From positions 1-60,036 of the IMG/VR virus record IMGVR_UViG_3300033407_000012: a stretch of DNA of 60,036 nucleotides. One strand, written 5' to 3'. A model generated the notes under the pieces. It ran no database searches and had not been told where the DNA came from. It was given only the letters and a program-made list of their open reading frames with translations. Each line of letters begins with the position of its first letter. The stretch's first letter is position 1. The position numbers and the translations under genes are program-made. The DNA comes from a virus (taxonomy: Duplodnaviria; Caudoviricetes). Of the stretch, positions 5,983 through 59,885 are shown in pieces.

Positions 5983-6318
5983 ATGACCACGCCACTTAAG
6001 TATACTCCCTTACCCAAAAGTTTCTGGATAGATGACGTGCTTCATGCGCTGGTCAATAATAGTGAACACAAACATAAGTCCGCCAGAGCAATAGCTGATT
6101 CCACGGGGGTGCATCATAAAATTATAGCAAGGCTTCGCTTGGAACCACACTTACCATCCAAGGATATCACCATAGCCCTACTCGATTACTTGTTGCCACA
6201 GGGAAGTATTCTTGCGATTGTCGAGCAGCCGCCGCCAAAATCCACGCCGCTAAAGTGGCAAGATTTACCTTCAGTGCGCGCTGTGTCAGCAAATGCTTCC
6301 AATGACGAGGATTATTGA
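5983..6318 (+). CDS. Putative HTH DNA-binding protein (paralog 1)
   Basis: S.R.IA...GVH..II.RL Cro/XRE-like pattern; promoter TTGACA-N17-TACATT at 5924. Confidence 0.6.
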   Translation: MTTPLKYTPLPKSFWIDDVLHALVNNSEHKHKSARAIADSTGVHHKIIARLRLEPHLPSKDITIALLDYLLPQGSILAIVEQPPPKSTPLKWQDLPSVRAVSANASNDEDY

Positions 6319-6319
6319 C

Positions 6320-6559
6320 ATGACCACCTACTTCACACCTGTAGACGAGGACTACCCAATCAGTCATCTCCTTCATAATTTGGTCAACAGCGACCAACAC
6401 AAACACAAGTCCACGAGGTTTATTGCTCGTGCTATCAACATACATCCCAACGTGGTTATGCGACTTCGCCGAGAACCTTACCTACCCGCCGAGGACGCCA
6501 CCATGGCACTTCTGAGATACCTATTGCCGCAAGGTTCCCGCCTAGTAATCGTCTATTAG
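6320..6559 (+). CDS. Putative HTH DNA-binding protein (paralog 2)
   Basis: Shares LH.LVN...HKHKS.R.IA...LR.EP.LP...ALL.YLLPQGS with the upstream gene. Confidence 0.65.
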   Translation: MTTYFTPVDEDYPISHLLHNLVNSDQHKHKSTRFIARAINIHPNVVMRLRREPYLPAEDATMALLRYLLPQGSRLVIVY

Positions 6560-6568
6560 AGGCCTGAC

Positions 6569-6934
6569 ATGTCACTTTACATTTCAACACACCAATTGCG
6601 CAAACTGGTCGAGGATGGTAAGTCACCCTTAGAACATTTGTTTGACCAAAATTCCATAGGTGCAGCCGCCATAGCTATGCACGTTATCTTTCACCTATCA
6701 AAAAAACCTAACTACGCCAAGTCTCAGTATATTGCACGCCATGACTGTGTCAGAAGGATAAGGCAGCTTAGCCCGTACAAGGTAGCAGATACCGGGCAAA
6801 TGGCTGAAGAAATGTTAGATACTCTCATGCACGAAGGAATCATATACGCCCAAACCATACGCCCATCCACAAAACCGCTCAAAGTAATATGGCCTAGACT
6901 CGACCATGCAGCATGGGAACTGTTCCGCTCGTAA
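6569..6934 (+). CDS. Stand-alone paralog of the primase-helicase C-terminal domain
   Basis: AM.VIF.LSKK, Y.ARH.C.R, MAEE, RPSTKPLK and LDH.AWE shared with the C-terminus of 11841-14696. Confidence 0.85.
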   Translation: MSLYISTHQLRKLVEDGKSPLEHLFDQNSIGAAAIAMHVIFHLSKKPNYAKSQYIARHDCVRRIRQLSPYKVADTGQMAEEMLDTLMHEGIIYAQTIRPSTKPLKVIWPRLDHAAWELFRS

Positions 6935-7010
6935 ACTCGCTCCACGACTAAGAGCAAAACCAATGGGCGACCTCTTCACCCCATTCACAGTTTAACAAGG
7001 ACCACCCACC

Positions 7011-7463
7011 GTGACCAACCCCACCTCCACCCTTAACGTCGCCAATATTCGCAAGGTCATCAACCTTATTCGCGCTGCAAGTGACCCGGACGCACCGCAG
7101 CCACACGAACCCTTTCTTCACAACGGGAGGCCAGTCGCCTTCCACATGAATTACGCCGTGGTAAACGTCCAGGAAATGCTGGAATCTCATAAACAATTCG
7201 TAGGTGCTCCGCAGGATTGCGGCACAGTGGCCTGCATCGCCGGTTTCTGCGATATCCTGCAAAATCCCAACGCCAGATTTACTACCCTGTGTCCGACTAC
7301 CGCAATAGCGGAAGTATTCGGCGTCGATATTGAGTTAGCCCTTAAAATAGCATTTCCAAACAACAGCACCACAATTCACCTCCGTTCTGCCACCGCGGAG
7401 CATGCAATCAACATGCTTGAGAACCTGATTGCAACAGGGGAGGTGCGCTGGGTACTCGATTAG
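7011..7463 (+). CDS. Hypothetical protein, CG..AC.AG family (paralog A1)
   Basis: FHM...CGTVACIAG. Confidence 0.75.
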   Translation: MTNPTSTLNVANIRKVINLIRAASDPDAPQPHEPFLHNGRPVAFHMNYAVVNVQEMLESHKQFVGAPQDCGTVACIAGFCDILQNPNARFTTLCPTTAIAEVFGVDIELALKIAFPNNSTTIHLRSATAEHAINMLENLIATGEVRWVLD

Positions 7464-7601
7464 CAAACGGGTTAGGATAGTGCTGTCAAGTCCCACACAA
7501 AATACTTGACAATAACAGCCCACCACTTTAAAGTTCACATGCACCCTGTGGCAACCGGTGCGAAGATTTCAACAGGGCCAACATCACAAAGGAATGATAC
7601 A

Positions 7602-8293: not shown

Positions 8294-8303
8294 GGATCTG
8301 ATC

Positions 8304-10245: not shown

Positions 10246-10686
10246 ATGACCGTCGCCGCTTCTTCCGAACAGAAAACTTTCAACGAGTTGGTCACCTCGC
10301 CAAATGCGCTGCAACTCTGCTATGACATCGCTTGTGAGGGCCTAGCCTCTCAGGAATTCAAGCAGTCAGTCGACAAGCATAACCGATGCGTATACAGGTC
10401 CGCCGACCCCTGTGGCAACACTCTCAAATGCGCCATAGGTCATTTGATAGCGGACTCAGAGTATGAAGATTCACTTGAGGGGGCCGGGATTCAGCGGGTA
10501 TTATACAGTTTGACAGACTTGAAATATGATTTTAAAGGTCTTTATTCTGAATATTCTAGTCTCTTTAGTTTCCTAGCGTGGCTTCAGTCGTCTCATGATG
10601 CAGGAATGAATGCGGAAAGTATGAAGCAGCAACTGCGGAACATTAGTCGTCGCTTTGATCTCACAATTCCTGAATGCGTAAAATAA
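10246..10686 (+). CDS. Hypothetical protein, paralog B3
   Basis: Same motifs as B1. Confidence 0.75.
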   Translation: MTVAASSEQKTFNELVTSPNALQLCYDIACEGLASQEFKQSVDKHNRCVYRSADPCGNTLKCAIGHLIADSEYEDSLEGAGIQRVLYSLTDLKYDFKGLYSEYSSLFSFLAWLQSSHDAGMNAESMKQQLRNISRRFDLTIPECVK

Positions 10687-11224: not shown

Positions 11225-11491
11225 ATGAAAACAATCTACAAATATCAGCTCCCTGTACTTCACGGTTTGGGCCTCCTGATGTTGCCACAGGGGGCTCGGC
11301 CGCTTCATGTTGATACACAGGACGACACCCCTTATGTTTGGATGGAGGTCGATACGGGCGGTACACCGGTTAACCGGCCTTTCGCCTGTGTTTGGACCGG
11401 CAGAGAAGTTCCTGATGACGCCAAGAATATGACTTATATTGGGACTGCTGTCGGCAGGTCTGACGGCCTTGTTACACACTACTATATGTGA
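11225..11491 (+). CDS. Hypothetical phage protein
   Basis: MKTIYKY...TG...YIGT...H motif; GAGGA RBS. Confidence 0.7.
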   Translation: MKTIYKYQLPVLHGLGLLMLPQGARPLHVDTQDDTPYVWMEVDTGGTPVNRPFACVWTGREVPDDAKNMTYIGTAVGRSDGLVTHYYM

Positions 11492-11852: not shown

Positions 11853-14696
11853 TTGTTCCCAAGCTGGGTGATCCAGGATCTGAATAGCTTTAAGTGGTTT
11901 GGTTGACGGTCGTACCACGGGTATGGCGATAATTCCGTCTTTAGCCAATATCTCCACGGTTTCTTCAGCCATTTTGTGCGAACTATGCGAGGTGATTTGG
12001 CCGTCGTCTGCTGTCTTGAACGGCAACCTCTTTCGCATTTCTCTAATGCATTCATGACGGGCCACATATCCATCTGCAATAGCTTTTGTTTTTTTAGACA
12101 GGTCAAAAATAACCTGCATAGCTACAGCAGTGGCATCCCCTCGCGTGGTTCCAATTATGTTCGTGTCGAACGCATGCATGAGACTGCATACCGTGTTGAG
12201 GCAGTAACCTAGTGCCCATGCATAGTGACCGTAATTGATTACGGGGTGCTCCGGGTTATCACAAATAGCTAGGATGGCGGCTACACGCGCTGACATGATG
12301 GCTATGCGGGCTAGTGACAGGTAGTGCAGCCCAAAAGGGCTTATTCCGTTCTGAACCGGGCGCTTGAATACGCCGACCTGAATAAGGACTTTGTCGAAAA
12401 GTTCGTTGGCGTACTGATCAAACTCCACGTATTGAACAAAGAATGACCGATCAACGTTAGCATCCGCTGCTGTCTGTTCGTATCGTTGATCAGTTTCTAC
12501 AGCTGTTCGTAACAGCGTCTTAACTAAGTTCTCTTGTTCCTCAGGAAGTTTGCGTAACATTTGTGACGGGTGTTGCTCAACAGCGGATGCACCTTTGTGC
12601 GTCACAACCAAAAGTCTAGACGGTAGACCACTTTCAACCACATCCCGCGTGAAGAACTCAGTAATGTTGGAAATAGTTGTGCCCCAATACGTGGCTACAC
12701 TCAAGTTTAAGATCGGACTTTCGCCCTCTTTCTTTGACGTGCGGGAGGCATAGGGGTTTGTCACGGCTTTAGCCGTGCTGGCGTCAAATAGCTGGTTGAA
12801 GAAGCTTTGGAAGTTGTTATCGGTAGGTGTTTTGGGCTTCACAATGCTTTGCAGTGAGGCCTTGCACTCGTCAATCAACCACAAGCAGCTAGGCACCTCC
12901 TCTAGGTGGCCGTGCATGCCTTGTACTGACCCAGCAGCACCCTTAAACACGCGATTTTTGCAAGCGTGTAGTTCGCACCTAATCGAACCAAACAGCTTCT
13001 CAATGACGCCTACTGACTGAGACTTGCCGGTAGCGGTTTGAGCACATACAATGAAATTTAGGACAGGACCAGAGCCGTCATTGCGAACCTTGTATCGTCT
13101 ACTGACCACACCCGATAAGAACGATAAAGTAGCAGGGACAGCAAACTTAACCATTGGCTCATACATGGCTTTATATGCGCTCAGACACAGCTCACCGGCC
13201 TTGCCAGGAGGCAACATTTCTTCACTAAGGTATTGTGGCGGGATACCGCAGCTTAAGAAATCACGAGCTTCAAGGGCACGCGGTTTAGCTAGTTCAGCAG
13301 ATTGAGGCCTGTTCCTGAGCGACTGCATCACCCTGAGGTGTTCTTCCTTAGCTATCGAAGCCTGGAAAGCTGTATCGTAAGGGTCGCCCTCTTGGTGCTC
13401 GTCGAGAACATTACCCGTGCCGCTGGAGGGTGCCTGAGTGATTTCTTCACTGCCGTGAGCGTTTGCCACAGGGAGCTTTGACGCTTCCCAGTTGGCCACT
13501 AGAAGGCGACCGTGATCAATGGCGCTTTGATCACGCATCGGTGGTAATGTTTTACCGGACTCGAACCACCTGTCATTCTTTTCCCGGGCTTTAATAACCT
13601 CTTTGTTGAATACGCCGTTTTTGCCGAACATCCTGTCCCAGCGATCTCGACCTTCTACAACACGACCTCCTGGAAGAACTTTTTCAGTTTTACCGGCATG
13701 TATCATGCGCGGTGACTCCTCCATCAACCGCCTTACCTGTTCATATTTGCCGGAGATTTTATCGAATGTCCCGATAAGTGCAGCCGTGTCAAAGGACCAA
13801 TCAGCACGTCCTGTGTTATCTACTGACCAACCTGCATCGCCCTGATAAACCTGCCAATCCTTCTTAAGCTTGTTTTGTATGTAATCAAGAATTTCATGGT
13901 CAGTCAGATCTGTTCTGCGACCGTACTTGGTATAGTTAGGGAGCAAGTATTCAACATTTGAGGCAAGTGATTCTTCAGATGTGTTGTCATTGTTAGGAAC
14001 CAAGTCGCCAGTGTTAGTGTAGGTGTTTTCAAATGTTTTAAAGAATTCTGTGAGATCGGGCAGTGATTCTTCACCATCACGCAAACTGTCATCACTTGGC
14101 CACTGATCTGCGGGCTCATCTGAGATCTTAGGGATATCCCCGACTACGTAAATAAATTGTCCGTTAGCAAACACGTTGCCATAAGAGCCAATGTCATACC
14201 GTTTATGTGGAATGTCAGCTATGAAGAAAATGTGCCAGCCGTTGCCCGACATGGATCGTTCTATGTAAGCGCCCTTATCGGCGAAATTCTTGGCTATGTC
14301 ATTAATGCGGATCCGTGCAGCAGCACAGTAATTGTCAGCATCTTCCTGACTAACGGTTCCGCGATTAACACGCTGCTGCATCTTTTCTTCTTGATAGTCC
14401 AGATCAACGCAAACTACACGACTACCTACAGGGGAGGCTACGGCCAGCGCCGCAATATTATCGCCTGCTCTTAAGAAATAAGCTCTAGCATCATCATATG
14501 TAGCTAGCGTGTCAGGATCATTAAAACTGGCTATGTATCTATGGCCGCGACCGGGAAGAGCTTGTGAGACAACAGTAATTGGTTCTTTATTTTCGTTGAC
14601 AAGCGCCCATGTGTCGAAGGCCTTCAATTCTTTAGGTATATTGGCCAGTTTCACCCTTATCCGGGAGTTGGTGTGCGCCGCTTTAGCTGCCGTCAT
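11841..14696 (-). CDS. Primase-helicase (AEP prim-pol plus C-terminal P-loop helicase)
   Basis: CVDLD, E.SMSGNGWH; Walker A ATGKS, Walker B LIDE. Confidence 0.85.
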   Translation of the reverse strand: MTAAKAAHTNSRIRVKLANIPKELKAFDTWALVNENKEPITVVSQALPGRGHRYIASFNDPDTLATYDDARAYFLRAGDNIAALAVASPVGSRVVCVDLDYQEEKMQQRVNRGTVSQEDADNYCAAARIRINDIAKNFADKGAYIERSMSGNGWHIFFIADIPHKRYDIGSYGNVFANGQFIYVVGDIPKISDEPADQWPSDDSLRDGEESLPDLTEFFKTFENTYTNTGDLVPNNDNTSEESLASNVEYLLPNYTKYGRRTDLTDHEILDYIQNKLKKDWQVYQGDAGWSVDNTGRADWSFDTAALIGTFDKISGKYEQVRRLMEESPRMIHAGKTEKVLPGGRVVEGRDRWDRMFGKNGVFNKEVIKAREKNDRWFESGKTLPPMRDQSAIDHGRLLVANWEASKLPVANAHGSEEITQAPSSGTGNVLDEHQEGDPYDTAFQASIAKEEHLRVMQSLRNRPQSAELAKPRALEARDFLSCGIPPQYLSEEMLPPGKAGELCLSAYKAMYEPMVKFAVPATLSFLSGVVSRRYKVRNDGSGPVLNFIVCAQTATGKSQSVGVIEKLFGSIRCELHACKNRVFKGAAGSVQGMHGHLEEVPSCLWLIDECKASLQSIVKPKTPTDNNFQSFFNQLFDASTAKAVTNPYASRTSKKEGESPILNLSVATYWGTTISNITEFFTRDVVESGLPSRLLVVTHKGASAVEQHPSQMLRKLPEEQENLVKTLLRTAVETDQRYEQTAADANVDRSFFVQYVEFDQYANELFDKVLIQVGVFKRPVQNGISPFGLHYLSLARIAIMSARVAAILAICDNPEHPVINYGHYAWALGYCLNTVCSLMHAFDTNIIGTTRGDATAVAMQVIFDLSKKTKAIADGYVARHECIREMRKRLPFKTADDGQITSHSSHKMAEETVEILAKDGIIAIPVVRPSTKPLKAIQILDHPAWEQLSL

Positions 14697-14889: not shown

Positions 14890-15137
14890 GTCATCTTTGA
14901 TGGTTGAGCCATTTCAGTTGCCCCAGGATTGAACAGCATAGGCCATAAGTAAGATCAAATAGCCCTCGCCGCGAACCCTCACAATAGCATGCCACAAACC
15001 CCTGTGGCAACCCTTATGCTTCAAGAGCTTATGGCCGTTCTCAACTAAAAAAGTTGTTGACAGAGCAAAACGCCAAGTATAGTATAAGGGCTTCGAACAA
15101 CATCTTGTATGTCTGTACTAAACGGGGCACAATCAAC

Positions 15138-15731
15138 ATGGCACGACGACCGATGATAGCTACTGTCCTCAGTATGCCTGAGGATCGTAAGCAACTTTTA
15201 TTCGCCCAGATGGCGAAATGGAAAATGGCAAAAGCTGAATTGGACGCCGCAGCGGAGAATGAAAAAGCTGCCCGCATGGAAATTCATCGAGAATTTTTTG
15301 CCGATGCGGAAGAGGGCCTGAACAAGATCGGTCTCGGAAGCTTCTACAATGCAGACGGCGTGCTGATACGTCATGAACTGCAGATGGAGATCAAGGTCAA
15401 TCGTACACTGGACAAAAAGCCTTTCATGAAGGCCATCACTGAGAAGACGATAAAGGCTGCTGATGTCAAGGACGTGATCACTTTTCAGCCGTCATTCAGC
15501 GCTGCAAACTGGCGCAAACTACTTGATGCCCGCGAAGCTGCCCGGGACGAGGCGGCTAAACTTTCTAATTCTGACGGGTCACAGGAGCAGTCACTTGAGC
15601 CAGCAGCCCCCGCCGACGACAACGCACCAAAAATGGCTGATGCAATCCTTGAAATCTTTTCTCAGTTCGTCAAGGAAGCTCCGGGAACTCCGTCAATCAA
15701 ACACCACACCGTGGAAATTCAAACGGATTAA
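15138..15731 (+). CDS. Hypothetical protein, first gene of the recombination operon
   Basis: Promoter TTGACA-N17-TAGTAT at 15057; coiled-coil N-terminus. Confidence 0.7.
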   Translation: MARRPMIATVLSMPEDRKQLLFAQMAKWKMAKAELDAAAENEKAARMEIHREFFADAEEGLNKIGLGSFYNADGVLIRHELQMEIKVNRTLDKKPFMKAITEKTIKAADVKDVITFQPSFSAANWRKLLDAREAARDEAAKLSNSDGSQEQSLEPAAPADDNAPKMADAILEIFSQFVKEAPGTPSIKHHTVEIQTD

Positions 15732-16603: not shown

Positions 16604-16699
16604 GGATAAAATCTACTCGGTGTCTTGTTACCAACCAATCGCCCCGCCAATAGGGTGAAAAACAGCCCAGCAACAGGGCACAACAGAAGGACTATCCGT

Positions 16700-17443
16700 A
16701 TGTCAGTCGCATTTACCTTTAACGCCGCAAACGTCGCTCCAAGCGCACCGAGGGACACTGTTCCCAGCGGGGAGTACGATGTCGCCATCGTCAAATCCGT
16801 CGACAAAGAAACCAAAGACAAAAACGGGGCCATGTTCTTCGCGTTTGATTACAAGATCCTGACTGGTGATTACGCCGGCAAGATTGTTGTGGATCGCATC
16901 AACTACAAGAACGCCAATGCCACAACTGTCGAGATCGCCATGGCTCAGCTTTCCGCTATCAGCCACGTTACCGGCGTCATGCAGTGGACCAACACGGCTC
17001 AGCTCCACGGCAAACCGTTCAAGGTCAGTGTTGTCAAGGAAGAACGTGACGACAAGCCGGGATCATTCTCGAACAACGTGACGGGCTACAAGGACAGCAA
17101 GGGGAATGCTCCTGGCGAACAGGGTCAGGTTGCCACAGGGGATCAAGGTGCGTCAACCTTTGCCGCTCAGGCTCAGGCAGTTCAGCCGGATCCTGCACAA
17201 GTGGCTCAGCAGCAAGCAGCCGCCCAGCAGGTAGCTCTTGCCCAGCAGCAGGCAGCACAGGCCGCAGCCGCTCAGCAGCAGACACCTCCACAGCTGGCAG
17301 CTGGAGTAATCGCAATCGGAACCGGTGGATTCATCAACACCGCTACGGGCCAGCCTTGCGATCCGATGGGTAACCCAATTCAGCAGATGGCAGCTGCTGT
17401 CCAGACAGGTGCTCCTGCCGCAACGCCCGATTGGGCCAAGTAA
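16700..17443 (+). CDS. DUF669-type single-stranded DNA-binding protein
   Basis: P.G.Y.V.I, G.YAG......N, LHGKP; Q/A-rich tail ending PDWAK. Confidence 0.8.
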   Translation: MSVAFTFNAANVAPSAPRDTVPSGEYDVAIVKSVDKETKDKNGAMFFAFDYKILTGDYAGKIVVDRINYKNANATTVEIAMAQLSAISHVTGVMQWTNTAQLHGKPFKVSVVKEERDDKPGSFSNNVTGYKDSKGNAPGEQGQVATGDQGASTFAAQAQAVQPDPAQVAQQQAAAQQVALAQQQAAQAAAAQQQTPPQLAAGVIAIGTGGFINTATGQPCDPMGNPIQQMAAAVQTGAPAATPDWAK

Positions 17444-21009: not shown

Positions 21010-21084
21010 GGCTCTTTTTCTTGTTTGTGTCGGGGTTGTCGTCTTTCTTTTCGTCCTAGCTATTGTCACAGGGGAGTCTTCACG

Positions 21085-27774: not shown

Positions 27775-27833
27775 CGTTGACAAACCAAGGCCCTTAGCTC
27801 ATAGTGGGCGGGTTAACTAGGCGGCAATCCCAC

Positions 27834-28839: not shown

Positions 28840-28843
28840 GTTC

Positions 28844-47129: not shown

Positions 47130-47183
47130 TAGGACCGTACCGCTTGGTTGCCACAGGGGAGGTTGCTGGGTTGGTGGGTGACA

Positions 47184-47717: not shown

Positions 47718-47718
47718 A

Positions 47719-50411: not shown

Positions 50412-51044
50412 CTATTCGGTCTCCTCCCCCAAGATACGGGAAACAACATCATTAGCCACTGCAAGACCATCCCGAATACCTATGCGCGCAATAGCGGCGC
50501 TTGGCAAGGTCAGCAGAGTTACCCCCTCCCCGATGGGTTTGGCTTTTTTAAGCACCTCAAGAGCTTGCAACATTTTGTTGTCCATAACAAAAAGATCTTC
50601 AAGTGCTGACATCGTTTCAAGCTGAATCTCAAGCTCAGTTACGGACTTGTCGGCGGAGAGCTTAATCGGGGAGGACAACTGGAAAAGAATGGCAGTGTGA
50701 ATGCCGTCGCCTTCCGAAATAATTTTGCCAGCCTCGCCCGCGCTCTGCTCGTCCATCTTGGCCATCAGGGAACGGAGCTTGATAGCATAAACCCCCGGAA
50801 TAGCACCGTAGGACTGGTCAGTGAACGTGTGCTGCTTGCCATCCTTCCCTGTGGCAACCACCTGTTTTTTGATCCGCTCACGCCAAATGTTTCGAGAAAC
50901 ATCATGCTGTGTTTTAGCGCTCTCTTGGGCAGACACTGTAGCCGCAACAAAAGTCTCAAAGGAAATAGGCTTCATCTCAAGTGCGGAAATCTCCACACCG
51001 TTAATATGAAGCGCTGGACTTTTGATTTCAATCTTATCTGACAT
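50412..51044 (-). CDS. Probable tail assembly chaperone
   Basis: Ends at a GGGGGAG slippery site with a -1 frame open to 50248. Confidence 0.6.
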   Translation of the reverse strand: MSDKIEIKSPALHINGVEISALEMKPISFETFVAATVSAQESAKTQHDVSRNIWRERIKKQVVATGKDGKQHTFTDQSYGAIPGVYAIKLRSLMAKMDEQSAGEAGKIISEGDGIHTAILFQLSSPIKLSADKSVTELEIQLETMSALEDLFVMDNKMLQALEVLKKAKPIGEGVTLLTLPSAAIARIGIRDGLAVANDVVSRILGEETE

Positions 51045-51059: not shown

Positions 51060-53942
51060 TTATTGTGCCGTAGTGGTTGCGCCCGTATCTGGCGACGGCG
51101 TACCAGAAAAGGAATTGACTGTTACCCTGACGTTTGCTACAGCAGCCGAGAAAACAGACGCGGCTGAATCCCCTATTGATGTCCCTATAGCCGCTGCTCT
51201 TTCTAACAGGCTATCTGCTGCTGCGTCACCTGCCTTTGCCCCGCCAGCTTCAATATCCAATGTGGCTTGAACAGCAGCTTGACCGATAGATTGTTTAGGA
51301 TCAAATATATCTGTTGGCAAGCTACTTTGACCAGCAAGTTGATCCACTACAGCCTTGGTTGCCGCTGCGAGTTGAAGACCGTCTAGTGGTCGTGGAACTG
51401 GGATTGGTACGACAGTTCGCTGCAAATTAGTTACCACATCGGAAATAAAGTTTTCGCTGGCAACTGAGAAAGCTAACGGTGCTCTCACGTTGTTAATCCC
51501 GCGAGCTAGGTCATTAAGAGCCCTGTTGGCATTATTAGACCCGTCCCGAATTTTAAGCAACGATTTTTTAGTTTCTTCAGGCGGAAGCGCTACCACAGAG
51601 GAAGGCCTTGCCACAGGGATTGGGCCGATGGTGGGCATGCGGCTAGAGATTGATCCAGTACCGCCGCCACTACCACGACCGCGCCAACGGCTAGCGGGAG
51701 CGCCTGAGGGTAGGTTTAAGCCAAGAGCTCTTTCTGTTCCTCTAGCTAAATCATTAAGGCCGTCAACAGTCCCATCAGCAAGGAACTTCGTTGCCTTCCT
51801 TATCATGCCGAGGCTTCGGCCAAAACTATTGAAAGACCACCGAGCAGAGTTTCCTATAGCGTCGCCAAGACCGTCAGTTAGTTTCCTAAAAGAGCTATCA
51901 ATTGACGGCCTGATAAGGTCAAGTGTGCTGTTAAGGAGATCAGGACCAAAAGCAAAACCAACTGCGCCGAGGATTACAGAACCTATTCCAGAGCCGAGTG
52001 GACCAAAGAACGACCCAGCAGCCGCACCTATTTTAGCACCGAGAAGACCCCCGCCAAGTGAACCAACCAACCCGAAAGCAGCATCCTTTGCAGCAGTAGC
52101 ACCGCCTTTAACATCGCTCATTTCTGACGAGAATTGATAAAGTGCGGCACCTACAAGACCAATACCAGCAAGCTTACCAAGATTTCTTGTTAGGCCGGAG
52201 CCAGCACGGCCCCCGCGATTAGCACGACCACTCCCATTCATTCCGCCAGAAACACCAGCAGCACCCTGAAGAGCCATGGCGGCAGCAGACAACTGTGTTG
52301 CAGCAATTGACAAACGAGGACCGGCAGTAGCCCAGCCGAGAAGCATCTTGCCGCCAAAGTATGCGCCAGCTCCCAAAGCAGCGGCACCGCCTGCCTGAGT
52401 TATCCCAAGCAAAACGGGATCGTTGGCTATTTTGTTTACGGCGTCGGCCAGGAATAAGGGGACCCCGGCCAAAGCTTTAGCTAGCGGATCAACACCGACA
52501 GCTATTAAGTTAAGCATTTGTGTGCCAAGCAAGTCCAGAGACCGGCCAAAGTTACCAGCAGCCAGTTCTCGTTCTTGATTGAAATTCAAACTGCTAGAAC
52601 GCCTAACGTTTTGCTCCATTTGATCAGCTTTTGTCACAAGCTGAGCAGCAGTTCGCATATCATTCTTAGTGAGGCCTAGTTTAGCTAGTTCTTTAGAAAC
52701 TGCCAAACCGTATTGAGCTGGGTCGTTGTCCTTCATCAACTGAAGAGCTTCAGCAGAAAGATTGTTGGCCTTTTTAATACCGGCGTCAACTAGTGGCACA
52801 AGATTTTCACGTGCCCAAGCTGCCGGGTCTGTTCTAATGTCATTTTCGCCTTGAAGAACAATGCCCTTTGAGTCCCTAAGACCGGCTCGTGTCAGTGAAG
52901 CAATTGTTTTCTTGTTAACACCGCTAGTGCCTGTCAGAACCTGAGAGAGTCTAGCTAAGCCACTACCAGACACCCTGCCTAGTTCGTCTGTCATTTCAGC
53001 TAGGGCTAGAAAACCTTCCTTATTCAGTGTAGCCGATAAACCTGAAATTCTAACAGCGGACAGATAACTTTTTACGTCAAAGTCTGGACCACCGCGAATT
53101 TTCGCAGCAGTGACAGCCTCTAAAATATCTTTACCACGCTGGGCGTTTTCTAGACCACCACCAAGGTCAGTGATTTTAACCGCACTTTCCATTACCCGGG
53201 AAGCAGTTGCAGGATCAAATGCAATAGCCAAAGATGATTCTGATCGAGCAGCTACAGCAGCTAGCTTACGTAGAATCTCACCGTTTGCACCAGCAGTAGC
53301 AAGATTCCTGGCCACTGCGAAACTACTGGCCTTAGTTACGGAAAGCAGGCCCCGTGTAGCGCCTTCAGCGGCAGATTCAATCTCTTTAAGTTTGTCCCCT
53401 GTAAATCCTGCTTGCGCGGAAGCAGACCTTTGATTCTGCAGGTCACCTATAGCACCAAACCCGGCACCTATTCCCCTGCGAAGGCCAAAATAGGCCTCAT
53501 AAGCCAGAAAGGGCCTGCCAGCTCCAAAACTAGAACCGAATCTGCCTGTTTTCGGATTTTGACCTTGACCGCCCCTGCCACCTCCGACTCCGCCGGGACC
53601 TCCGCCCATTGCACCACCGCCACCAAGATTAGCATTGGGCATGTTGCGTAGAGTATTTTGCAGACGAGTAGCTCGTCTTTGTGCGGTAGTGATTTGGGAA
53701 GAATTTACCTTGACCACAGTGCTGCGGGAATTTATCCCGCGCAACGATGCAGACAGTTTGGTGGCGGAAGTATGGGCTCTTGTAAGATCGCCAGCGTTAA
53801 CCCGCAAACGGACAGTGCCACCGGCACTCTTGAGCCTTTTCGTGGTAGCAAGAAGCTTCGCCAAGGACCGATTGATCTTATTGACGTTAGCGGACGATCT
53901 GTCCTTCAGTATTAGGGTAGCTTGCTCTGTAAAGGACGCCAA
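51060..53942 (-). CDS. Tape measure protein
   Basis: 960 aa, A/G-rich; L.L.D..S N-terminus; hydrophobic Gly-zipper segments. Confidence 0.88.
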   Translation of the reverse strand: MASFTEQATLILKDRSSANVNKINRSLAKLLATTKRLKSAGGTVRLRVNAGDLTRAHTSATKLSASLRGINSRSTVVKVNSSQITTAQRRATRLQNTLRNMPNANLGGGGAMGGGPGGVGGGRGGQGQNPKTGRFGSSFGAGRPFLAYEAYFGLRRGIGAGFGAIGDLQNQRSASAQAGFTGDKLKEIESAAEGATRGLLSVTKASSFAVARNLATAGANGEILRKLAAVAARSESSLAIAFDPATASRVMESAVKITDLGGGLENAQRGKDILEAVTAAKIRGGPDFDVKSYLSAVRISGLSATLNKEGFLALAEMTDELGRVSGSGLARLSQVLTGTSGVNKKTIASLTRAGLRDSKGIVLQGENDIRTDPAAWARENLVPLVDAGIKKANNLSAEALQLMKDNDPAQYGLAVSKELAKLGLTKNDMRTAAQLVTKADQMEQNVRRSSSLNFNQERELAAGNFGRSLDLLGTQMLNLIAVGVDPLAKALAGVPLFLADAVNKIANDPVLLGITQAGGAAALGAGAYFGGKMLLGWATAGPRLSIAATQLSAAAMALQGAAGVSGGMNGSGRANRGGRAGSGLTRNLGKLAGIGLVGAALYQFSSEMSDVKGGATAAKDAAFGLVGSLGGGLLGAKIGAAAGSFFGPLGSGIGSVILGAVGFAFGPDLLNSTLDLIRPSIDSSFRKLTDGLGDAIGNSARWSFNSFGRSLGMIRKATKFLADGTVDGLNDLARGTERALGLNLPSGAPASRWRGRGSGGGTGSISSRMPTIGPIPVARPSSVVALPPEETKKSLLKIRDGSNNANRALNDLARGINNVRAPLAFSVASENFISDVVTNLQRTVVPIPVPRPLDGLQLAAATKAVVDQLAGQSSLPTDIFDPKQSIGQAAVQATLDIEAGGAKAGDAAADSLLERAAAIGTSIGDSAASVFSAAVANVRVTVNSFSGTPSPDTGATTTAQ

Positions 53943-53991: not shown

Positions 53992-54017
53992 CAAATCAGT
54001 GTTGCCACAGGGTGAGG

Positions 54018-57227: not shown

Positions 57228-57673
57228 TACAGTTTCACCCCCTGTGGCAACGGGGAGCCTATGAGCGGGTTTTTCTCAGGGGATGATGGTCGTGTTACAA
57301 GGTCGCCGCGTTCTATGAGCATGACATCGGATATAAAAAATAGGCCACACTCTGAATACTCGACGCCACCTATAATCTTAAACCATCTAGGCGGGGAAAG
57401 TCGACGGTTCTCAAAGAACCATGCTGCTGACGATATGTCCACGTCTGCACGATATCTTGTAACAATGATGTGAGTTCTTGATGCTTTGGGCTCTTGAATG
57501 GCGTAACCCGACACACCGAACTGCGTTGCTCTTTTAGGCAGGATTTCAGCCCACGTAGAAAATATTCCTTCACGGGATAGGCTCATCATTCCGTCTTGCG
57601 TAACTACGTCATGCATAGAGCACATAGTAACGAAATGCTTTAGCTTACTGATTGAGGGAGCAGTGTACGCCAT
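57227..57673 (-). CDS. Head-closure/head-tail adaptor
   Basis: L...VT; WA.I.P; TH.I..RYR.D. Confidence 0.75.
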   Translation of the reverse strand: MAYTAPSISKLKHFVTMCSMHDVVTQDGMMSLSREGIFSTWAEILPKRATQFGVSGYAIQEPKASRTHIIVTRYRADVDISSAAWFFENRRLSPPRWFKIIGGVEYSECGLFFISDVMLIERGDLVTRPSSPEKNPLIGSPLPQGVKL

Positions 57674-57678
57674 AACTG

Positions 57679-58389
57679 TTAAACTGCCTCATCATTATAC
57701 TGCCGCCACAACTCAAGAGCACCGGAGGCCCATGCCGCGTTATTTGTCCCTGTCAAACCGGCTTCAGCAATAGATCTGCGATTGCGTACTGTCATGATTT
57801 CATCGCCAGGATTCATAACGTTCCACGCGATAAACTTTAGCATGCCGACTAGCACACCGCCTTGAACACTTTCCACGGAATCATAGCCAGCATAGTACAT
57901 GATCCGGGACTGGTTAGTATTTCCGCCGTTGCCACAGGGGTTACAGCAGTCCATACCGGCGAGAAGACTGTTTGGATCGTGGTGGGGCGCTTGGATCTTT
58001 TTACTGCCTATCTTACCCTGAAGCAGCATAGGGGAGGTCATGCCATACAGGTAGGCCTCTGATCTGGCCAGCGCATACTTAGTCCTGATGGTGTTGTGCC
58101 GATGCACATTAATCCCACCTCCGATACGAGGTCTTGGCAAATCAAGATACTCAGTCAGGAGCTGAAGCGGTCCGAGGTAAAGGGACGTGTACTGCATCGC
58201 CGCTTCGAAAGCGGATTTTCGATACAAACGCAATTGCTCGTCCGTAACAACAGGAATATCAGCTGTTTTGGTGTGGACACGGACTACCTCAAGTGGCAGC
58301 AACTCTTCAAGTGGAAAAAACTTCGGCGATGCTTCGGCAGCAAGGCCAATTCGGTCTTCAATAGGCGCTACACCCGCAATTTCTCGCAT
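57679..58389 (-). CDS. Head-tail connector (neck 1)
   Basis: L..V..H......D..L..Y..A.EA..YT; Y.AGY. Confidence 0.75.
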   Translation of the reverse strand: MREIAGVAPIEDRIGLAAEASPKFFPLEELLPLEVVRVHTKTADIPVVTDEQLRLYRKSAFEAAMQYTSLYLGPLQLLTEYLDLPRPRIGGGINVHRHNTIRTKYALARSEAYLYGMTSPMLLQGKIGSKKIQAPHHDPNSLLAGMDCCNPCGNGGNTNQSRIMYYAGYDSVESVQGGVLVGMLKFIAWNVMNPGDEIMTVRNRRSIAEAGLTGTNNAAWASGALELWRQYNDEAV

Positions 58390-58392
58390 GAA

Positions 58393-59112
58393 TTAGCACT
58401 TTCCGGGGATAAAATCAAAGCACGAAATGTGATCAAAGCAGACAAGATCGCAGTTCAAGGCGCGAGCTTTTATGTGCAGCCTGTAGATTTCGCAACTCCG
58501 GGCTAGGTTAGTCATTGTTACCGGAATCGAGATCTGCTGGAGATTAGCATCAACCACTATTTTGGCGGTATTGACTTCGATGGGAAGATCGAAATTTTTT
58601 GCTGGCATTGCTGCCTCGCTAACCCAAATCAGGACTTGTCGGGTTACTGAACGACCACTGTCATCCGTTTGCTTAAACCAGAATTCGTCCCAGCCTGTGA
58701 AGCCTTGATTTGGCGTGTAGGTAAACTGTCCTGCACCATCGTTGGTCAGAACGCCGTAATACGGACCGGACAAGGGAACTTTGCTATAAGTGAAATCACC
58801 ACCCGCCGGAGTGGCGTCAACTGTGAGATCGATAACAAGCGGAGCGTTAGGATCAGTGGTTACCTTTTTGGCAGTGTTAAGCGGAGCAGGGTCTTCGCCG
58901 GTTGTAGGCGGGCAACCGACAGAATTTATCTCAAGCTCTACACTGGGATCACAACGCAAGCCATGACCACCAATTGGAACGGACCACGGTGCATAGTTCA
59001 AAACAAGTAGATTAGTTTCGCCAGGACGCATATGAATGGTGTGGCAGCAGCAAGTAGAGCATGCTGCAAGGTTTGCCCCGTTATCGCGACCGTCTAGAGT
59101 AATGTGGATCAT
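58393..59112 (-). CDS. Cys-rich Ig-like virion protein (collar-like)
   Basis: CxxCCC N-terminus; P..G.L......FTYTP..GF.G.D.F cadherin-like motif. Confidence 0.65.
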   Translation of the reverse strand: MIHITLDGRDNGANLAACSTCCCHTIHMRPGETNLLVLNYAPWSVPIGGHGLRCDPSVELEINSVGCPPTTGEDPAPLNTAKKVTTDPNAPLVIDLTVDATPAGGDFTYSKVPLSGPYYGVLTNDGAGQFTYTPNQGFTGWDEFWFKQTDDSGRSVTRQVLIWVSEAAMPAKNFDLPIEVNTAKIVVDANLQQISIPVTMTNLARSCEIYRLHIKARALNCDLVCFDHISCFDFIPGKC

Positions 59113-59192
59113 GTCGGCGTCCTAGAGATGGTGTAGGGCACAACCGGAGCCATTACAGCTCCGGTCTTATTGCTGGTCGTTATTCCGATTGA

Positions 59193-59282
59193 TTAGACCG
59201 GGATAGCGCAAGTGAAGCACGGTGGCGACACGAGGCGAACCGGAGTAGCAGTGGAACACGGGGCGACACAAACGAGGTTCAT
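59193..59282 (-). CDS. 29-aa Cys-rich capsid linking-protein-like peptide (not in ORF track)
   Basis: MNLVCVAPCSTATPVRLVSPPCFTCAIPV; AAGGA RBS; downstream hairpin at 59143-59165. Confidence 0.7.
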   Translation of the reverse strand: MNLVCVAPCSTATPVRLVSPPCFTCAIPV

Positions 59283-59327
59283 GGGGAGGTCCTTTCTTGT
59301 TTAAGTTTAATCCCGAGCAATCGTACC

Positions 59328-59885
59328 TTACTTGGGATCAGCAGCCTTTTTGGTTGCATCTTTGCCGTTAGTTTCGCTAGCGACAATCTCTGGCACTTTG
59401 GTAGAATCAGCCGGTTTTTCCGAGACAACAGCAGTCTTGGCTTCGGGAGCAGTCCATTTCGGGGCGGAGGCAGGTGCCGAGGCACTTTCCTTTGTCACTG
59501 TTGCCACAGGGGGCACTGTCGGTGCTTTGGTAGGCTCAGGCGGCTTGGTCGGTGCGGGTGCTGGCGTGGCCTGTTCCTTGGCGGGGGCGGTAGTTTCAGC
59601 AGCGTTTGCGACATCAACTGCGGCATTGTACGCATCAAGCTGATCACCGGTGATTCCCGAGGCGTAGCCGAGTAGCACAAGGCTTCTGGCGTTAGCCTGC
59701 GGCAAGATTGCTAGCGGAGACGCGGCGGGCCATTCGACACGATTAACTTGGCTCATAACGGACGTTTTGTACGTGAACCACGCCATGTCGTCCTTGACAC
59801 CGGAACGGACTCGCATAGCTACAGCGAACAGGCCGGATGGTGTTTCACATGCGCCGTCAGAGCGGCGCGTCAATTTCTCAAACAT
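59328..59885 (-). CDS. Hypothetical late protein with P/A/T/K-rich tail
   Basis: AAGGA RBS; low-complexity C-terminal half. Confidence 0.7.
   Translation of the reverse strand: MFEKLTRRSDGACETPSGLFAVAMRVRSGVKDDMAWFTYKTSVMSQVNRVEWPAASPLAILPQANARSLVLLGYASGITGDQLDAYNAAVDVANAAETTAPAKEQATPAPAPTKPPEPTKAPTVPPVATVTKESASAPASAPKWTAPEAKTAVVSEKPADSTKVPEIVASETNGKDATKKAADPK

What the first reader, a model, noticed from the sequence alone, without database searches (positions are those of the whole stretch)
6193..59511. Genome-wide asymmetric 11-bp motif TTGCCACAGGG embedded in coding sequence: candidate undescribed system
Seen: 26 exact copies by eye (16 plus, 10 minus) versus about 0.03 expected for an 11-mer at uniform composition. 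One-mismatch copies occur at 4206, 4883, 19461, 21063 and 24136, and the extended form is often GTTGCCACAGGGG. There is about one copy per 2.3 kb, 22 of 26 lie inside genes of all classes, and they are read in four frames (xATG, LPQG, PVA, PCGN), so selection acts on DNA rather than protein. Orientation is 13 sense and 13 antisense to local transcription, unlike mycobacteriophage stoperators. I saw none in either intein or in the fibre/wedge genes. Inference: orientation-independent sites for a protein that organises, protects, packages or ejects the genome, a Chi-like anti-AddAB signal, or a self-mark linked to DNA modification.
Basis: partly seen in the sequence, partly recalled or inferred. 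Interest (0 to 1): 0.92.

Follow-up and report, generated by a model that had tools for sequence, protein, structure and literature searches.

The report
Phage-lineage DNA self-tag TGCCACAGGG
A small group of related phages has written one exact 10-11-letter DNA word into its genes about every 2-3 kb on both strands, even bending protein sequences to fit it; the tested candidate hosts and all other relatives lack it, so it looks like a phage-owned recognition tag whose reader is still unknown.

Summary
TTGCCACAGGG occurs 26 times (16+, 10-) against 0.03 in dinucleotide shuffles and 0.55 in synonymous-codon shuffles. It fills 23 of 32 positions where the protein sequence allows it, and such positions are 7-fold more frequent than in residue-shuffled proteins. 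New here: the core TGCCACAGGG is shared with Synechococcus phages Yong-L2-223 and Ssp-JY38 (21 copies each) and an IMG/VR fragment, L214 (5 in 10.8 kb), at non-orthologous positions. It is missing from more than 100 other related phage loci. It is not a generic repeat in 401 cyanobacterial genomes, PCC 7002 plasmids or four alphaproteobacterial megaplasmids. Orientation ignores transcription, but has a 2:1 map-wide strand bias shared by the three phages. The best reading is a clade-specific self-tag read by a phage protein. Packaging recognition by a clade-specific small terminase is my leading guess; Chi-like and nick-site readings remain open, and the true host is unknown. The scan noted other hyper-abundant phage words on other DNA (e1-4081080, e1-1933828), not this one.

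The parts
6193..6203 (+). exact TTGCCACAGGG, sense in ORF 5941-6318, read LPQG
7544..7554 (-). exact copy, antisense in ORF 7506-8030, read PVA
10408..10418 (-). exact copy, antisense in ORF 10246-10686, read PCGN
11282..11292 (+). exact copy, sense in ORF 11225-11491, read LPQG
13463..13473 (+). exact copy, antisense in primase gene 11841-14696(-), read PVA
15000..15010 (-). exact copy, intergenic between divergent primase and DUF7173 genes
17130..17140 (+). exact copy, sense in DUF669 gene 16625-17443, read VATG
18959..18969 (+). exact copy, sense in ORF 18691-19491, read IATG
19251..19261 (-). exact copy, antisense in ORF 18691-19491, read PVA
26706..26716 (+). exact copy, sense in ORF 26252-26887, read VATG
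28980..28990 (+). exact copy, sense in DprA-like gene 28811-29335, read FATG
31386..31396 (-). exact copy, in a doubtful small ORF 31313-31456 (antisense, PLWQ) or intergenic
33141..33151 (+). exact copy, sense in GTP cyclohydrolase I gene 32837-33598, read FATG
35481..35491 (-). exact copy, antisense in clamp-like gene 34990-35991, read PVA
35768..35778 (+). exact copy, sense in clamp-like gene 34990-35991, read VATG
36996..37006 (-). exact copy, antisense in DNA polymerase A gene 35992-38004, read PVA
40371..40381 (+). exact copy, sense in SLT transglycosylase gene 40124-40846, read VATG
42689..42699 (-). exact copy, sense in PG-binding gene 42056-42946(-); left arm of an inverted pair 15 bp apart
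42715..42725 (+). exact copy, antisense in the same gene; right arm of the inverted pair
47148..47158 (+). exact copy, in the 56-bp gap between baseplate genes 45936-47129(-) and 47184-47717(-)
50847..50857 (-). exact copy, sense in ORF 50412-51044(-), read VATG
51608..51618 (+). exact copy, antisense in the 960-aa tail gene 51060-53942(-), read PVA
54002..54012 (+). exact copy, intergenic between 51060-53942(-) and 54018-54440(-)
57240..57250 (-). exact copy, sense in ORF 57227-57673(-), read LPQG
57929..57939 (+). exact copy, antisense in ORF 57679-58389(-), read PCGN
59501..59511 (+). exact copy, antisense in ORF 59328-59885(-), read PVA
4206..4216 (+). one-mismatch copy (last G to T)
4883..4893 (+). 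one-mismatch copy (core position 9 G to T)
19461..19471 (-). one-mismatch copy (core position 3 C to A)
21063..21073 (+). one-mismatch copy (core position 3 C to T)
24136..24146 (-). one-mismatch copy (last G to T)
4411..4908 (-). VRR-NUC-type nuclease gene, shared only with the motif-bearing sister phage among the 7 compared genomes; candidate reader or nickase by co-occurrence only
15054..15731 (+). DUF7173 gene, shared only with the motif-bearing sister phage; candidate by co-occurrence only
21025..21300 (+). small ORF shared only with the sister phage among the compared relatives, but with homologues in Caulobacter, Brevundimonas and Rhizobium phages; weak candidate
40846..41283 (+). 145-aa ORF shared only with the sister phage among the compared relatives; homologues in Azospirillum and Rhizobium phages; weak candidate

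Best explanation
The word (core TGCCACAGGG; in this phage always preceded by T and usually flanked by G) is a cis-acting DNA recognition tag. It is kept at about one copy per 2-3 kb on both strands by selection, or by an intracellular competitive drive, acting on DNA. It belongs to one small clade of PolA/DpdA-bearing myoviruses with Mu-type baseplates: this phage, Synechococcus phages Yong-L2-223 and Ssp-JY38, and the IMG/VR fragment L214. I read it as a phage-owned 'self' tag recognised by a clade-specific phage protein that acts on the whole chromosome rather than on individual genes.

My committed sub-mechanism (about 0.2 on its own) is that the DNA-packaging machinery reads the tag through the clade-specific small terminase. 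The copies would then be dispersed pac-like entry sites that mark phage DNA and not host DNA for encapsidation. Genomes or recombinants with more copies would be packaged more often in a mixed infection, which drives the word towards saturation, much as uptake bias drives bacterial uptake sequences.

Shown: the enrichment, the codon-level and residue-level imprint, the clade restriction, the positional turnover, independence from transcription, the shared strand bias, and the lack of comparable abundance in the tested bacterial genomes.
For: 1. It is DNA-level and strong. There are 26 copies against 0.03. In CDS there are 23 against 0.548 (max 3) in 500 synonymous shuffles. 23 of 32 residue-compatible positions are occupied, and 2 of the 9 empty ones overlap an occupied copy. 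Compatible positions number 32 against 4.34 +/- 2.19 (max 13) in 300 residue shuffles.

2. It is independently maintained in relatives. Yong-L2-223 has 21 core copies, with 18 in its first 50 kb against 0.06 in shuffles and 20 in annotated CDS against 0.71 (max 3) in 300 codon shuffles, in the same reading frames (ATG, PQG, PVA). L214 has 5 in 10.8 kb against 0.01.

3. Positions turn over: 0 of the 8 window sites that could be mapped through protein alignments coincide with a Yong site.

4. It is clade-restricted. Across 76 sheath-relative loci there is 1 copy in all. Across 16 related records of 51-76 kb there is 1 copy in all. Across 35 TerL-relative loci (389,566 bases) there are 0. G001 and G002 have 0 exact copies; Agrobacterium phages Milano and 7-7-1, Sulfitobacter M39 and Microcystis Me-ZS1 have 0, 1, 0 and 0.

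5. It was not found as a host repeat where I could look. The PCC 7002 plasmids pAQ7 and pAQ6 hold 1 copy. A Picosynechococcus-like genome, G003, holds 16 core copies in 3.4 Mb. The maximum among 401 cyanobacterial genomes is 19 copies of the 11-mer.

6. It has whole-chromosome polarity and not gene polarity. Sense to antisense is 12:11 here and 9:11 in Yong. Yet 16 of 26, 16 of 21 and 4 of 5 copies point the same way relative to the structural genes, pooled 36 of 52, binomial p 0.008. The two orientations interleave: 19 runs, p 0.012.

7. Yong tolerates changes at core positions 3 and 9 (26 one-mismatch copies against 4.42 expected), whereas the window does not (7 against 3.82).

8. A terminase link exists by co-occurrence. 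L214's Terminase_2-type small terminase has a homologue in Yong (36%, 5e-36). It has none, at E up to 0.01, in the five motif-free related genomes that do share TerL and portal (G407, G408, G412, G414, G417); G002, which matched no L214 ORF, and the 50 kb held of phage 7-7-1 also lack it. Among 50,697 phage records it matches only Yong and JY38, plus two weak hits.
Against: No reader has been identified. The terminase link is co-occurrence in 2 genomes of one clade. At least five other genes show the same pattern: VRR-NUC, DUF7173, two small ORFs and L214 6416-6820. That is expected from shared descent alone.

The small terminase gene is not in this window, because the record lacks the head module. 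To my knowledge, which is recalled and untested, known pac sites are single loci in or near terS and not dispersed words, so the prior for the packaging step is low.

The host of this phage is unknown. L214 carries a GcrA gene, and small ORFs of the window match Caulobacter, Brevundimonas, Rhizobium and Azospirillum phages. The host may therefore be alphaproteobacterial, a class I could sample only through four megaplasmids.

Cyanobacterial genomes show a mild excess over the reversed-word control, for example 41 against 5 in G147. I could not test that excess against a codon-aware null. One bacterial metagenome contig of the phage's G+C content carries two extended copies in 10.3 kb.
Confidence: 0.45

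Rival explanations
1. Localized nick sites. A clade-specific phage nickase cuts one strand at each copy late in infection, as in T5, phiKMV-like phages and Pseudomonas phage tf. The word is the nickase's recognition sequence.
For: Phage tf has 14 nicks at a strict 9-mer, 5'-TACT/RTGMC-3', in 46 kb, with few near-variants. The paper proposes co-evolution of the nickase and its sites (PMC3517423, passages read). That is a similar density and strictness to what is seen here. The complement of our word, CCCTGTGGC, shares 6 of 9 letters with TACTGTGAC; this is my own comparison, roughly p 0.1 after allowing for offsets. A VRR-NUC (PD-(D/E)xK) nuclease is shared only by the motif-bearing genomes compared. 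The window encodes a DNA ligase. Yong's relaxed positions resemble the tolerated substitutions in tf.
Against: In tf, T5 and phiKMV-like phages all sites lie on one strand, and in the LUZ24 group their positions are similar among relatives. Here the split is 16:10 and 0 of 8 positions are shared. Copies on opposite strands 15 bp apart (42689 and 42715) would make a double-strand break if both were nicked. Stand-alone VRR-NUC proteins are structure-specific resolvases as far as I recall. The ligase has no tblastn match in Yong. No raw reads exist to look for ends.
Confidence: 0.15
2. Chi-like signal. The word is read on one strand by a translocating helicase-nuclease and switches it from degradation to protection or recombination. 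Many copies in both orientations would then shield any broken or linear phage DNA.
For: The word is asymmetric. Both orientations are present and interleaved (19 runs, p 0.012). There is a chromosome-wide 2:1 bias shared by three phages, positions are free with a maintained density, and use is near-saturating. All of these are what a 'nearest site to any end' function predicts. The phage carries a recombination module: an AAA_24 protein, DUF669 and a Cas4-type exonuclease.
Against: A host enzyme's Chi should be over-represented in the host chromosome. The Picosynechococcus-like genome has 16 core copies in 3.4 MB, and PCC 7002 plasmids have 1 in 310 kb. Known Chi words are 5-8 nt (recalled), whereas this one is 10-11. 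The phage's own exonuclease and helicase are also present in motif-free relatives.
Confidence: 0.12
3. Host-derived hyper-abundant word. This could be an uptake-sequence-like tag or another genome-wide repeat of the true, still unknown host. The phage would have acquired it by living in that host.
For: The host of this soil-metagenome phage is unknown. The gene pool points to Alphaproteobacteria, which I sampled only thinly. A bacterial contig, L439, of 48.4% G+C with an RND pump and HPr kinase has two extended copies in 10.3 kb. This scan noted a soil verrucomicrobial 9-mer shared with its phages (e1-4081080, unchecked by me). The size, asymmetry, strand symmetry and preferred reading frames resemble DUS and USS (recalled).
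Against: 401 cyanobacterial genomes reach at most 19 copies, about 7 per Mb against 433 per Mb in the phage. The recorded host type of the sister phage is not enriched. In 4.07 Mb of alphaproteobacterial megaplasmids there are 6 copies against 6 for the control. None of 117 metagenome stretches holding a 14-mer form has 3 or more copies; this list was truncated, so the evidence is weak. Two carriers differ by 10 points of G+C (49% and 58.7%), which argues against one shared host genome shaping both. Close relatives from similar sources lack the word. L439's second copy is not significant after 117 trials.
Confidence: 0.12
4. Dispersed operator or roadblock sites of a phage repressor or regulator, like the stoperators of cluster A mycobacteriophages or the C1 operators of P1.
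For: These are dispersed asymmetric sites of similar length and number. One copy sits in the divergent promoter region at 15000.
Against: Sense to antisense is 12:11 here and 9:11 in Yong, and 23 of 26 copies lie inside coding sequence. No tyrosine or serine recombinase was found in the window. No repressor-like family was found in the ORFs scanned. Positions are not conserved.
Confidence: 0.05
5. Functionless by-product of a biased repair or mutation process, of the very-short-patch type, that converts near-matches into the word.
For: Near-variants are scarce in the window, 7 against 3.82 expected. A clade-specific PD-(D/E)xK nuclease is present.
Against: The enrichment is about 800-fold and it has reshaped protein sequence. 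As I recall, the known repair bias around CCWGG in E. coli changes word counts only modestly. Yong keeps many near-variants, which a converting process should erase.
Confidence: 0.04
6. Target or exclusion site of the phage's 7-deazaguanine DNA modification (DpdA).
For: A complete FolE/QueD/QueE/QueC/DpdA-like set lies in the window, and the word is G-rich at its 3' end.
Against: Six motif-free relatives carry homologues of DpdA, QueE, QueD and FolE, and five of the six also carry QueC. As I recall, and did not read here, phage DpdA target contexts described so far are 2-3 nt.
Confidence: 0.03

Closest known systems
Localized single-strand interruption (nick) consensus sites of phages tf, T5 and phiKMV-like phages (PMC3517423, passages read)
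   Same: A strict short asymmetric word, strongly enriched in a phage genome (tf: 14 copies of a 9-mer in 46 kb) and lying largely inside genes. The word is lineage-specific, with slightly different preferred variants in relatives. Its function is unknown even where nicking is proven.
   Different: Those sites are all on one strand and sit at similar positions in relatives. Here both strands carry copies (16:10) and no mapped position is shared. Nicking here is untested.
DNA uptake sequences of Neisseriaceae (DUS) and Pasteurellaceae (USS) (recalled, no paper read here)
   Same: A 9-12-nt asymmetric core at about one per 1-2 kb on both strands, mostly in coding DNA in a few favoured reading frames. 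Positions turn over while density is kept. It is explained as a self tag for a DNA-translocating machine, possibly spread by drive.
   Different: Those are properties of bacterial chromosomes, which their phages merely share. Here the carriers are phages, and the tested bacterial genomes have less than 2% of the phage density.
Chi sites read by RecBCD/AddAB (recalled)
   Same: An asymmetric word read in one orientation, with a chromosome-wide orientation bias. More copies mean more protection, and new copies arise by point mutation anywhere.
   Different: Chi is 5-8 nt and over-represented in the host chromosome. This word is 10-11 nt and was not enriched in the tested host-type genomes.
Stoperators of cluster A mycobacteriophages and dispersed C1 operators of phage P1 (recalled)
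   Same: Some two to three dozen copies of an asymmetric 13-17-bp site spread over a phage genome and bound by one phage protein.
   Different: Those are oriented with transcription or sit at promoters, and they belong to temperate phages. Here orientation is transcription-blind, 23 of 26 copies are inside coding sequence, and no integrase was found.
HIP1 and other hyper-iterated words of cyanobacteria (recalled; also cited in scan note e1-5917732)
   Same: A hyper-abundant exact word that shapes codon and residue choice, with unknown function.
   Different: HIP1 is a palindrome of host genomes, and it occurs 0 times in this window. The present word is asymmetric and phage-restricted.

Membership tests
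Cluster A mycobacteriophage stoperators | Sites oriented in one direction relative to local transcription | tested here: not met
   12 sense, 11 antisense and 3 intergenic in the window; 9 sense, 11 antisense and 1 intergenic in Yong-L2-223
Cluster A mycobacteriophage stoperators | Temperate phage with a cognate immunity repressor and integration functions | tested here: inconclusive
   No Phage_integrase or Resolvase match in the window and no repressor family among the ORFs scanned. The record is incomplete, however, and many small ORFs have no family.
Chi (RecBCD/AddAB recognition) sites | Strong over-representation in the host chromosome (about one per few kb) | tested here: not met
   16 core copies in a 3.4-Mb Picosynechococcus-like genome, 1 in 310 kb of PCC 7002 plasmids, and at most 19 copies of the 11-mer in any of 401 cyanobacterial genomes. 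The host of this particular phage is unknown.
Chi (RecBCD/AddAB recognition) sites | Orientation bias along the replicon | tested here: inconclusive
   36 of 52 copies in three phages share one map orientation, p 0.008. The direction of replication or packaging is not known.
Chi (RecBCD/AddAB recognition) sites | Attenuates a helicase-nuclease | not testable with these tools
   Needs biochemistry
DNA uptake sequences (DUS/USS) | Hyper-abundant in the bacterial genome that takes up the DNA | tested here: not met
   Searches found no bacterial genome or stretch near the phage density. Only Cyanobacteria were sampled widely.
DNA uptake sequences (DUS/USS) | Asymmetric 9-12-nt core on both strands, mostly in coding DNA in favoured frames | tested here: met
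Localized nick sites (T5, tf, phiKMV-like) | Strict repeated consensus word in the phage genome | tested here: met
   26 exact copies, against 7 one-mismatch copies where 3.82 are expected
Localized nick sites (T5, tf, phiKMV-like) | All sites on one DNA strand | tested here: not met
   16 + and 10 -; Yong 5 + and 16 -
Localized nick sites (T5, tf, phiKMV-like) | Physical, ligase-repairable nicks at the sites in virion DNA | not testable with these tools
   Only assembled contigs of the two holding runs are available, with no raw reads
pac sites of headful-packaging phages | Recognition by the small terminase | not testable with these tools
   There is only co-occurrence of a clade-specific Terminase_2 small terminase with the word, in 2 of 2 motif-bearing genomes that include the head region against 0 of 5 motif-free genomes that share TerL and portal
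pac sites of headful-packaging phages | A single locus in or beside the small terminase gene | tested here: not met
   Copies are dispersed over the whole record. Yong's terS holds only a one-mismatch copy.
HIP1-type hyper-iterated palindromes | Palindromic word abundant in the host genome | tested here: not met
   The word is not a palindrome; GCGATCGC occurs 0 times in the window

The most novel reading that the evidence does not exclude
A phage-autonomous self-tag system. One clade of phages both writes and reads its own 10-11-nt uptake-sequence-like word. The word marks phage DNA for a chromosome-wide machine, either packaging or protection from a nuclease, and it spreads through the genome by competition among co-infecting genomes. 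This would be the viral counterpart of bacterial DUS/USS or Chi.
Probability: 0.35. Interest if true: 0.9.

Novelty: new variant of a known kind. Interest (0 to 1): 0.72.

Why it matters
Dispersed recognition words such as Chi, uptake sequences, stoperators and nick sites each revealed a machine that reads whole chromosomes. This one has been maintained across phages whose proteins are only 30-69% identical. It overrides protein sequence, and the tested bacteria and the phages' other relatives lack it, so a dedicated reader very likely exists. One carrier, Yong-L2-223, is recorded as cultured on a genetically tractable cyanobacterium. The question 'what reads it, and does it mark self DNA for packaging or protection?' can therefore be tested directly. 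If a phage-owned self tag is confirmed, it would give a new handle on how phages tell their own DNA from the host's. It would also provide a sequence signature for recognising members of this clade in metagenomes.

Tried and rejected
Searches for the same or an analogous word in relatives. De novo k-mer counts in 76 sheath-relative loci and in the PolA relatives L009 and L010 found only tandem repeats inside genes or GC-rich low-complexity words, and no dispersed word.

HIP1: 0 copies.

Even spacing: the coefficient of variation of the gaps is 0.72 against 0.95 for random points, p 0.066 in the window and 0.145 in Yong, which is not significant.

Motif-free regions (inteins, fibre and wedge genes, the first 6 kb): the largest gap is not unusual.

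Literature. The word and its complement occur in 100 papers. The 20 listed, judged by title and abstract start, concern unrelated subjects. 'Yong-L2-223' is in no paper of the library. A six-term search for over-represented asymmetric phage motifs listed nothing relevant. These three searches are the only basis for my statement that I found no report of this word.

Reader hunt. Pfam and PHROGs scans of 67 window and L214 ORFs found no methyltransferase, HNH nuclease or obvious sequence-specific DNA-binding family. PDB sequence searches confirmed only the VRR-NUC assignment. Atlas look-ups of DUF7173 and the 145-aa ORF gave viral families of unknown function. An alignment-based search for more small-terminase relatives in IMG/VR returned only L214 itself. 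I did not run structure predictions, because the link between any candidate and the word is co-occurrence only.

Sequencing runs. Two soil-metagenome runs hold the stretch, one of them possibly its source, and both are kept as contigs. No RNA holder is listed.

Host hunt. As a result, no all-prokaryote scan of a 14-mer form was possible, and Alphaproteobacteria could be sampled only through four plasmid records.

The mild excess of the word over its reversed control in cyanobacteria was not tested against a codon-aware null. In G147, 8 of the 40 sites fetched lie in identical copies of one repeated element. The commonest reading there is antisense xLW(Q/H) (15 of 40, 14 of them LWQ), which occurs once in the window.

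Full report
What is there. The window is a whole IMG/VR virus record of 60,036 bp, 'linear', with CheckV completeness 100. TTGCCACAGGG occurs 26 times, 16 on + and 10 on -, where dinucleotide-preserving shuffles give 0.03 (largest 1; 0 of 100 reach 26). The word and its sub-words are the most frequent 9- to 13-mers of the record. Aligning the 26 copies shows no conserved flank except G before the word (17 of 26) and G after it (18 of 26). It is therefore a discrete short word and not the core of a longer repeat.

The phage. It has a contractile-tail and Mu-type baseplate module on the minus strand (sheath 54499-56010, hub and wedge genes 45936-50174). The replication block holds a primase-helicase (11841-14696), an intein-bearing helicase (21297-24038), a clamp-like protein, PolA (35992-38004) and a ligase. 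The recombination set consists of AAA_24, DUF669 and a Cas4-type exonuclease. A full preQ0 pathway is present with a DpdA-like transglycosylase: radical-SAM QueE-like 27804-28544, QueC with intein 29328-31274, PTPS 32310-32837, GTP cyclohydrolase I 32837-33598 and phrog_887 33610-34587. No tyrosine or serine recombinase is found. No ORF of the size of a large terminase, portal or major capsid protein is present (compare). The record therefore lacks the head module and is not complete.

DNA-level selection. With my gene calls, 23 copies lie in ORFs, 12 sense and 11 antisense, and 3 are intergenic. The readings are xATG (9), LPQG (3), PVA (7), PCGN (2) and PLWQ (1). Shuffling synonymous codons within each gene leaves 0.548 copies on average (max 3 in 500) against 23 observed. 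Of 32 positions where the amino-acid sequence would permit the word, 23 carry it, and two of the nine empty ones overlap an occupied copy on the other strand. The number of permissive positions is itself 32 against 4.34 +/- 2.19 (max 13) when residues are shuffled within proteins. Protein sequence has thus been bent to hold the word.

Relatives. Megablast finds nothing in 50,697 phage records. By protein, the nearest cultured phages are Synechococcus phages Yong-L2-223 (recorded host PCC 7002) and Ssp-JY38, with PolA at 55% and sheath at 64% identity; Agrobacterium phages 7-7-1, Milano and OLIVR4 follow. Yong-L2-223 (65.7 kb, 58.7% G+C in its first 50 kb) has the same gene layout and carries the core TGCCACAGGG 21 times, 5 on + and 16 on -. 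In its first 50 kb there are 18 copies against 0.06 in shuffles. In annotated CDS there are 20 against 0.71 (max 3) in 300 codon shuffles, in the same reading frames, 9 sense and 11 antisense. Ssp-JY38 also has 21. In Yong the base before the core is T, G or A (11, 8, 2), and C stands three bases upstream in 16 of 21 copies. One-mismatch copies are also enriched, 26 against 4.42 expected, mostly at core positions 9 (11) and 3 (6). In the window they are not enriched, 7 against 3.82. Of the 26 window copies, 8 could be mapped onto Yong through protein alignments, and none coincides with a Yong copy. The density is inherited or maintained; the positions are not.

Of these, 114 held one core copy, one held two, and one, L214, held five in 10,770 bp (48% G+C; 0.01 expected). 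L214 is the head-module region of a phage of the same clade. Its TerL is 59% identical to Yong's, its portal 52% and its small terminase 36%; against five other relatives its TerL is 43-56% identical. No window protein matches it. It may represent the part missing from this record, or a close relative.

Who lacks it. The 76 IMG/VR loci with a sheath 45-64% identical hold one copy in total. Sixteen of those records, 51-76 kb long, searched whole, hold one copy in total. The 35 loci with a TerL related to L214's (389,566 bases) hold none. G001 and G002, which share the replication and deazaguanine modules, hold no exact copy. Agrobacterium phages Milano and 7-7-1, Sulfitobacter phage M39 and Microcystis phage Me-ZS1 hold 0, 1, 0 and 0. 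None of these relatives shows another dispersed word in its place. Five motif-free genomes (G407, G408, G412, G414, G417) share the structural, replication and deazaguanine genes with the window at 26-65% identity. This rules out the deazaguanine pathway and the common replication proteins as sufficient causes.

Host. The word is not a generic repeat where I could look. There is 1 core copy in the 310 kb of PCC 7002 plasmids pAQ7 and pAQ6. Five cyanobacterial genomes of 3.4-5.1 Mb hold 11-22 core copies, against 2-6 for the reversed control. One of them, G003, carries a 99%-identical copy of the pAQ7 ParA and holds 16. Among 401 cyanobacterial genomes, 233 have at least one copy of the 11-mer, and the maximum is 19, in the 2.6-Mb G147. 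That is about 7 per Mb against 433 per Mb in the window. The three richest genomes hold 41, 26 and 30 core copies, against 5, 3 and 6 for the control. Of 40 G147 sites fetched, 8 lie in identical copies of one repeated element. The rest are spread over coding DNA with another frame preference, antisense xLW(Q/H) in 15 of 40. I could not apply a codon-aware null to this mild excess.

The recorded cyanobacterial host may not be the whole story. L214 encodes a GcrA-family protein. Small window ORFs have homologues in Caulobacter, Brevundimonas, Rhizobium, Paracoccus and Azospirillum phages. The holding runs are soil metagenomes. Four alphaproteobacterial megaplasmids (4.07 Mb) hold 6 copies against 6 for the control. 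Among 117 metagenome stretches (681,017 bases) that contain another 14-letter form, 113 have one core copy, 4 have two and none has more. One of the four, L439, is a bacterial fragment with an RND efflux operon and HPr kinase. It has the phage's G+C content (48.4%) and two copies of the extended form in 10.3 kb.

Geometry. Orientation ignores transcription, but it is not random along the map. The majority orientation is antisense to the structural genes in all three phages, at 16 of 26, 16 of 21 and 4 of 5; pooled this is 36 of 52, binomial p 0.008. In the window the bias is about 2:1 in both the plus-strand replication block (7:4) and the minus-strand structural block (6:3); this is my count. 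The two orientations interleave more than expected in the window (19 runs, p 0.012). In Yong they reach the maximum possible 11 runs, which alone gives p 0.15. Spacing is only weakly more even than random (p 0.066 and 0.145).

Candidate readers. Several genes are shared by the motif-bearing genomes and absent, at E up to 1e-4, from six motif-free relatives. They are a VRR-NUC nuclease (4411-4908; PDB 4qbl at 6e-6), DUF7173 (15054-15731) and two small ORFs (21025-21300 and 40846-41283). From L214 they are the Terminase_2-type small terminase (3741-4652) and a 134-aa ORF (6416-6820). For these two the meaningful contrast is with the five motif-free genomes that match L214's TerL and portal. The small terminase type matches only Yong and JY38, plus two weak hits, among 50,697 phage records, and nothing else in IMG/VR by the alignment-based scan. 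Because the motif-bearing phages are also each other's closest relatives, this co-occurrence is expected from descent alone, and it nominates candidates without proving any. The small terminase is the only one with a known sequence-specific, chromosome-wide job.

Reading. The data show a short asymmetric word under strong DNA-level pressure. It is private to one phage clade, free in position but kept in number, blind to genes, and polarised along the chromosome. That profile matches 'self tags' read by DNA-handling machines (uptake sequences, Chi), and partly matches phage nick sites, better than it matches operators. My best explanation (0.45) is a phage-owned tag read by a clade-specific phage protein. 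Within that, I commit to packaging recognition through the small terminase (about 0.2), with copies accumulating because better-tagged genomes win the competition for capsids.

The rivals are weighed as follows. Nick sites (0.15) fit on density and strictness (tf: 14 copies of TACT/RTGMC in 46 kb, PMC3517423, passages read), but not on strandedness or positional conservation. A Chi-like signal (0.12) explains the geometry best, but it lacks host enrichment and a clade-specific nuclease-helicase. A host-derived repeat (0.12) is contradicted wherever tested, but the host is unknown. Operators, a repair by-product and a deazaguanine target site are each unlikely. No binding, nicking, modification or packaging data exist; only contigs of two runs hold this DNA.

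Novelty. I found no report of this word (searches; supplements closed). Earlier notes of this scan describe other hyper-abundant words in other phages, which I did not check. The kind, a dispersed recognition word, is known. What appears new is a DUS-like density on both strands, owned by a phage clade and missing from its tested candidate hosts.

Noticed in passing
window 1-60036: The record has no large terminase, portal, protease or major capsid gene, although CheckV rates it 100% complete. The head module present in the sister phage (Yong-L2-223 3396-8282) is missing, so the contig is a fragment of a genome probably near 70 kb.
   Followed up: partly
L214 1-10770: This IMG/VR fragment (48% G+C) holds small terminase, TerL and portal genes of the same clade and five copies of the word. 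It also encodes a GcrA-family regulator (1858-2478, minus strand) and a NADAR-domain protein (1409-1867, minus strand). It may represent the missing head region of this phage or a close relative, and GcrA hints at an alphaproteobacterial host.
   Followed up: partly
window 42689-42725: Two copies form a perfect inverted pair 15 bp apart (CCCTGTGGCAA-N15-TTGCCACAGGG) inside the PG-binding-domain gene 42056-42946. It is the only closely spaced pair and a natural first probe for binding or cleavage tests.
   Followed up: no
window 205-3990: An 18-bp palindrome family (ATCTTGATTAATCAAGAT and variants) occurs about 11 times in the first 4 kb, between small ORFs. It is the second most frequent long word of the record and is unrelated to the 11-mer.
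   Followed up: partly
L015/L016 (Yong-L2-223, OM868081.1): The sister phage has 58.7% G+C in the 50 kb measured. As I recall, PCC 7002 is near 49-50% (not measured here). Several small ORFs of this clade match phages of Alphaproteobacteria, so the recorded host assignment deserves a check.
   Followed up: no
L439 1-10306: This bacterial metagenome contig (RND efflux operon, TetR, full-length HPr kinase, PTS EIIA; 48.4% G+C) has two copies of the extended form TTGCCACAGGGG. It is a possible host lead, not significant on its own.
   Followed up: partly
G147 (loci L113, L118, L123, L128, L130, L137, L146 and one more): A 2.6-Mb cyanobacterial genome carries at least 8 identical copies of a repeated element, with an open frame of about 510 nt, that contains the 10-mer core. 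These inflate its count of the word.
   Followed up: no
window 29328-31274 and 21297-24038: QueC and the helicase are both interrupted by Hint/LAGLIDADG-type inteins (QueC: Pfam QueC, Hint and Intein_splicing). Neither intein carries the word, but the gap is not statistically unusual.
   Followed up: partly
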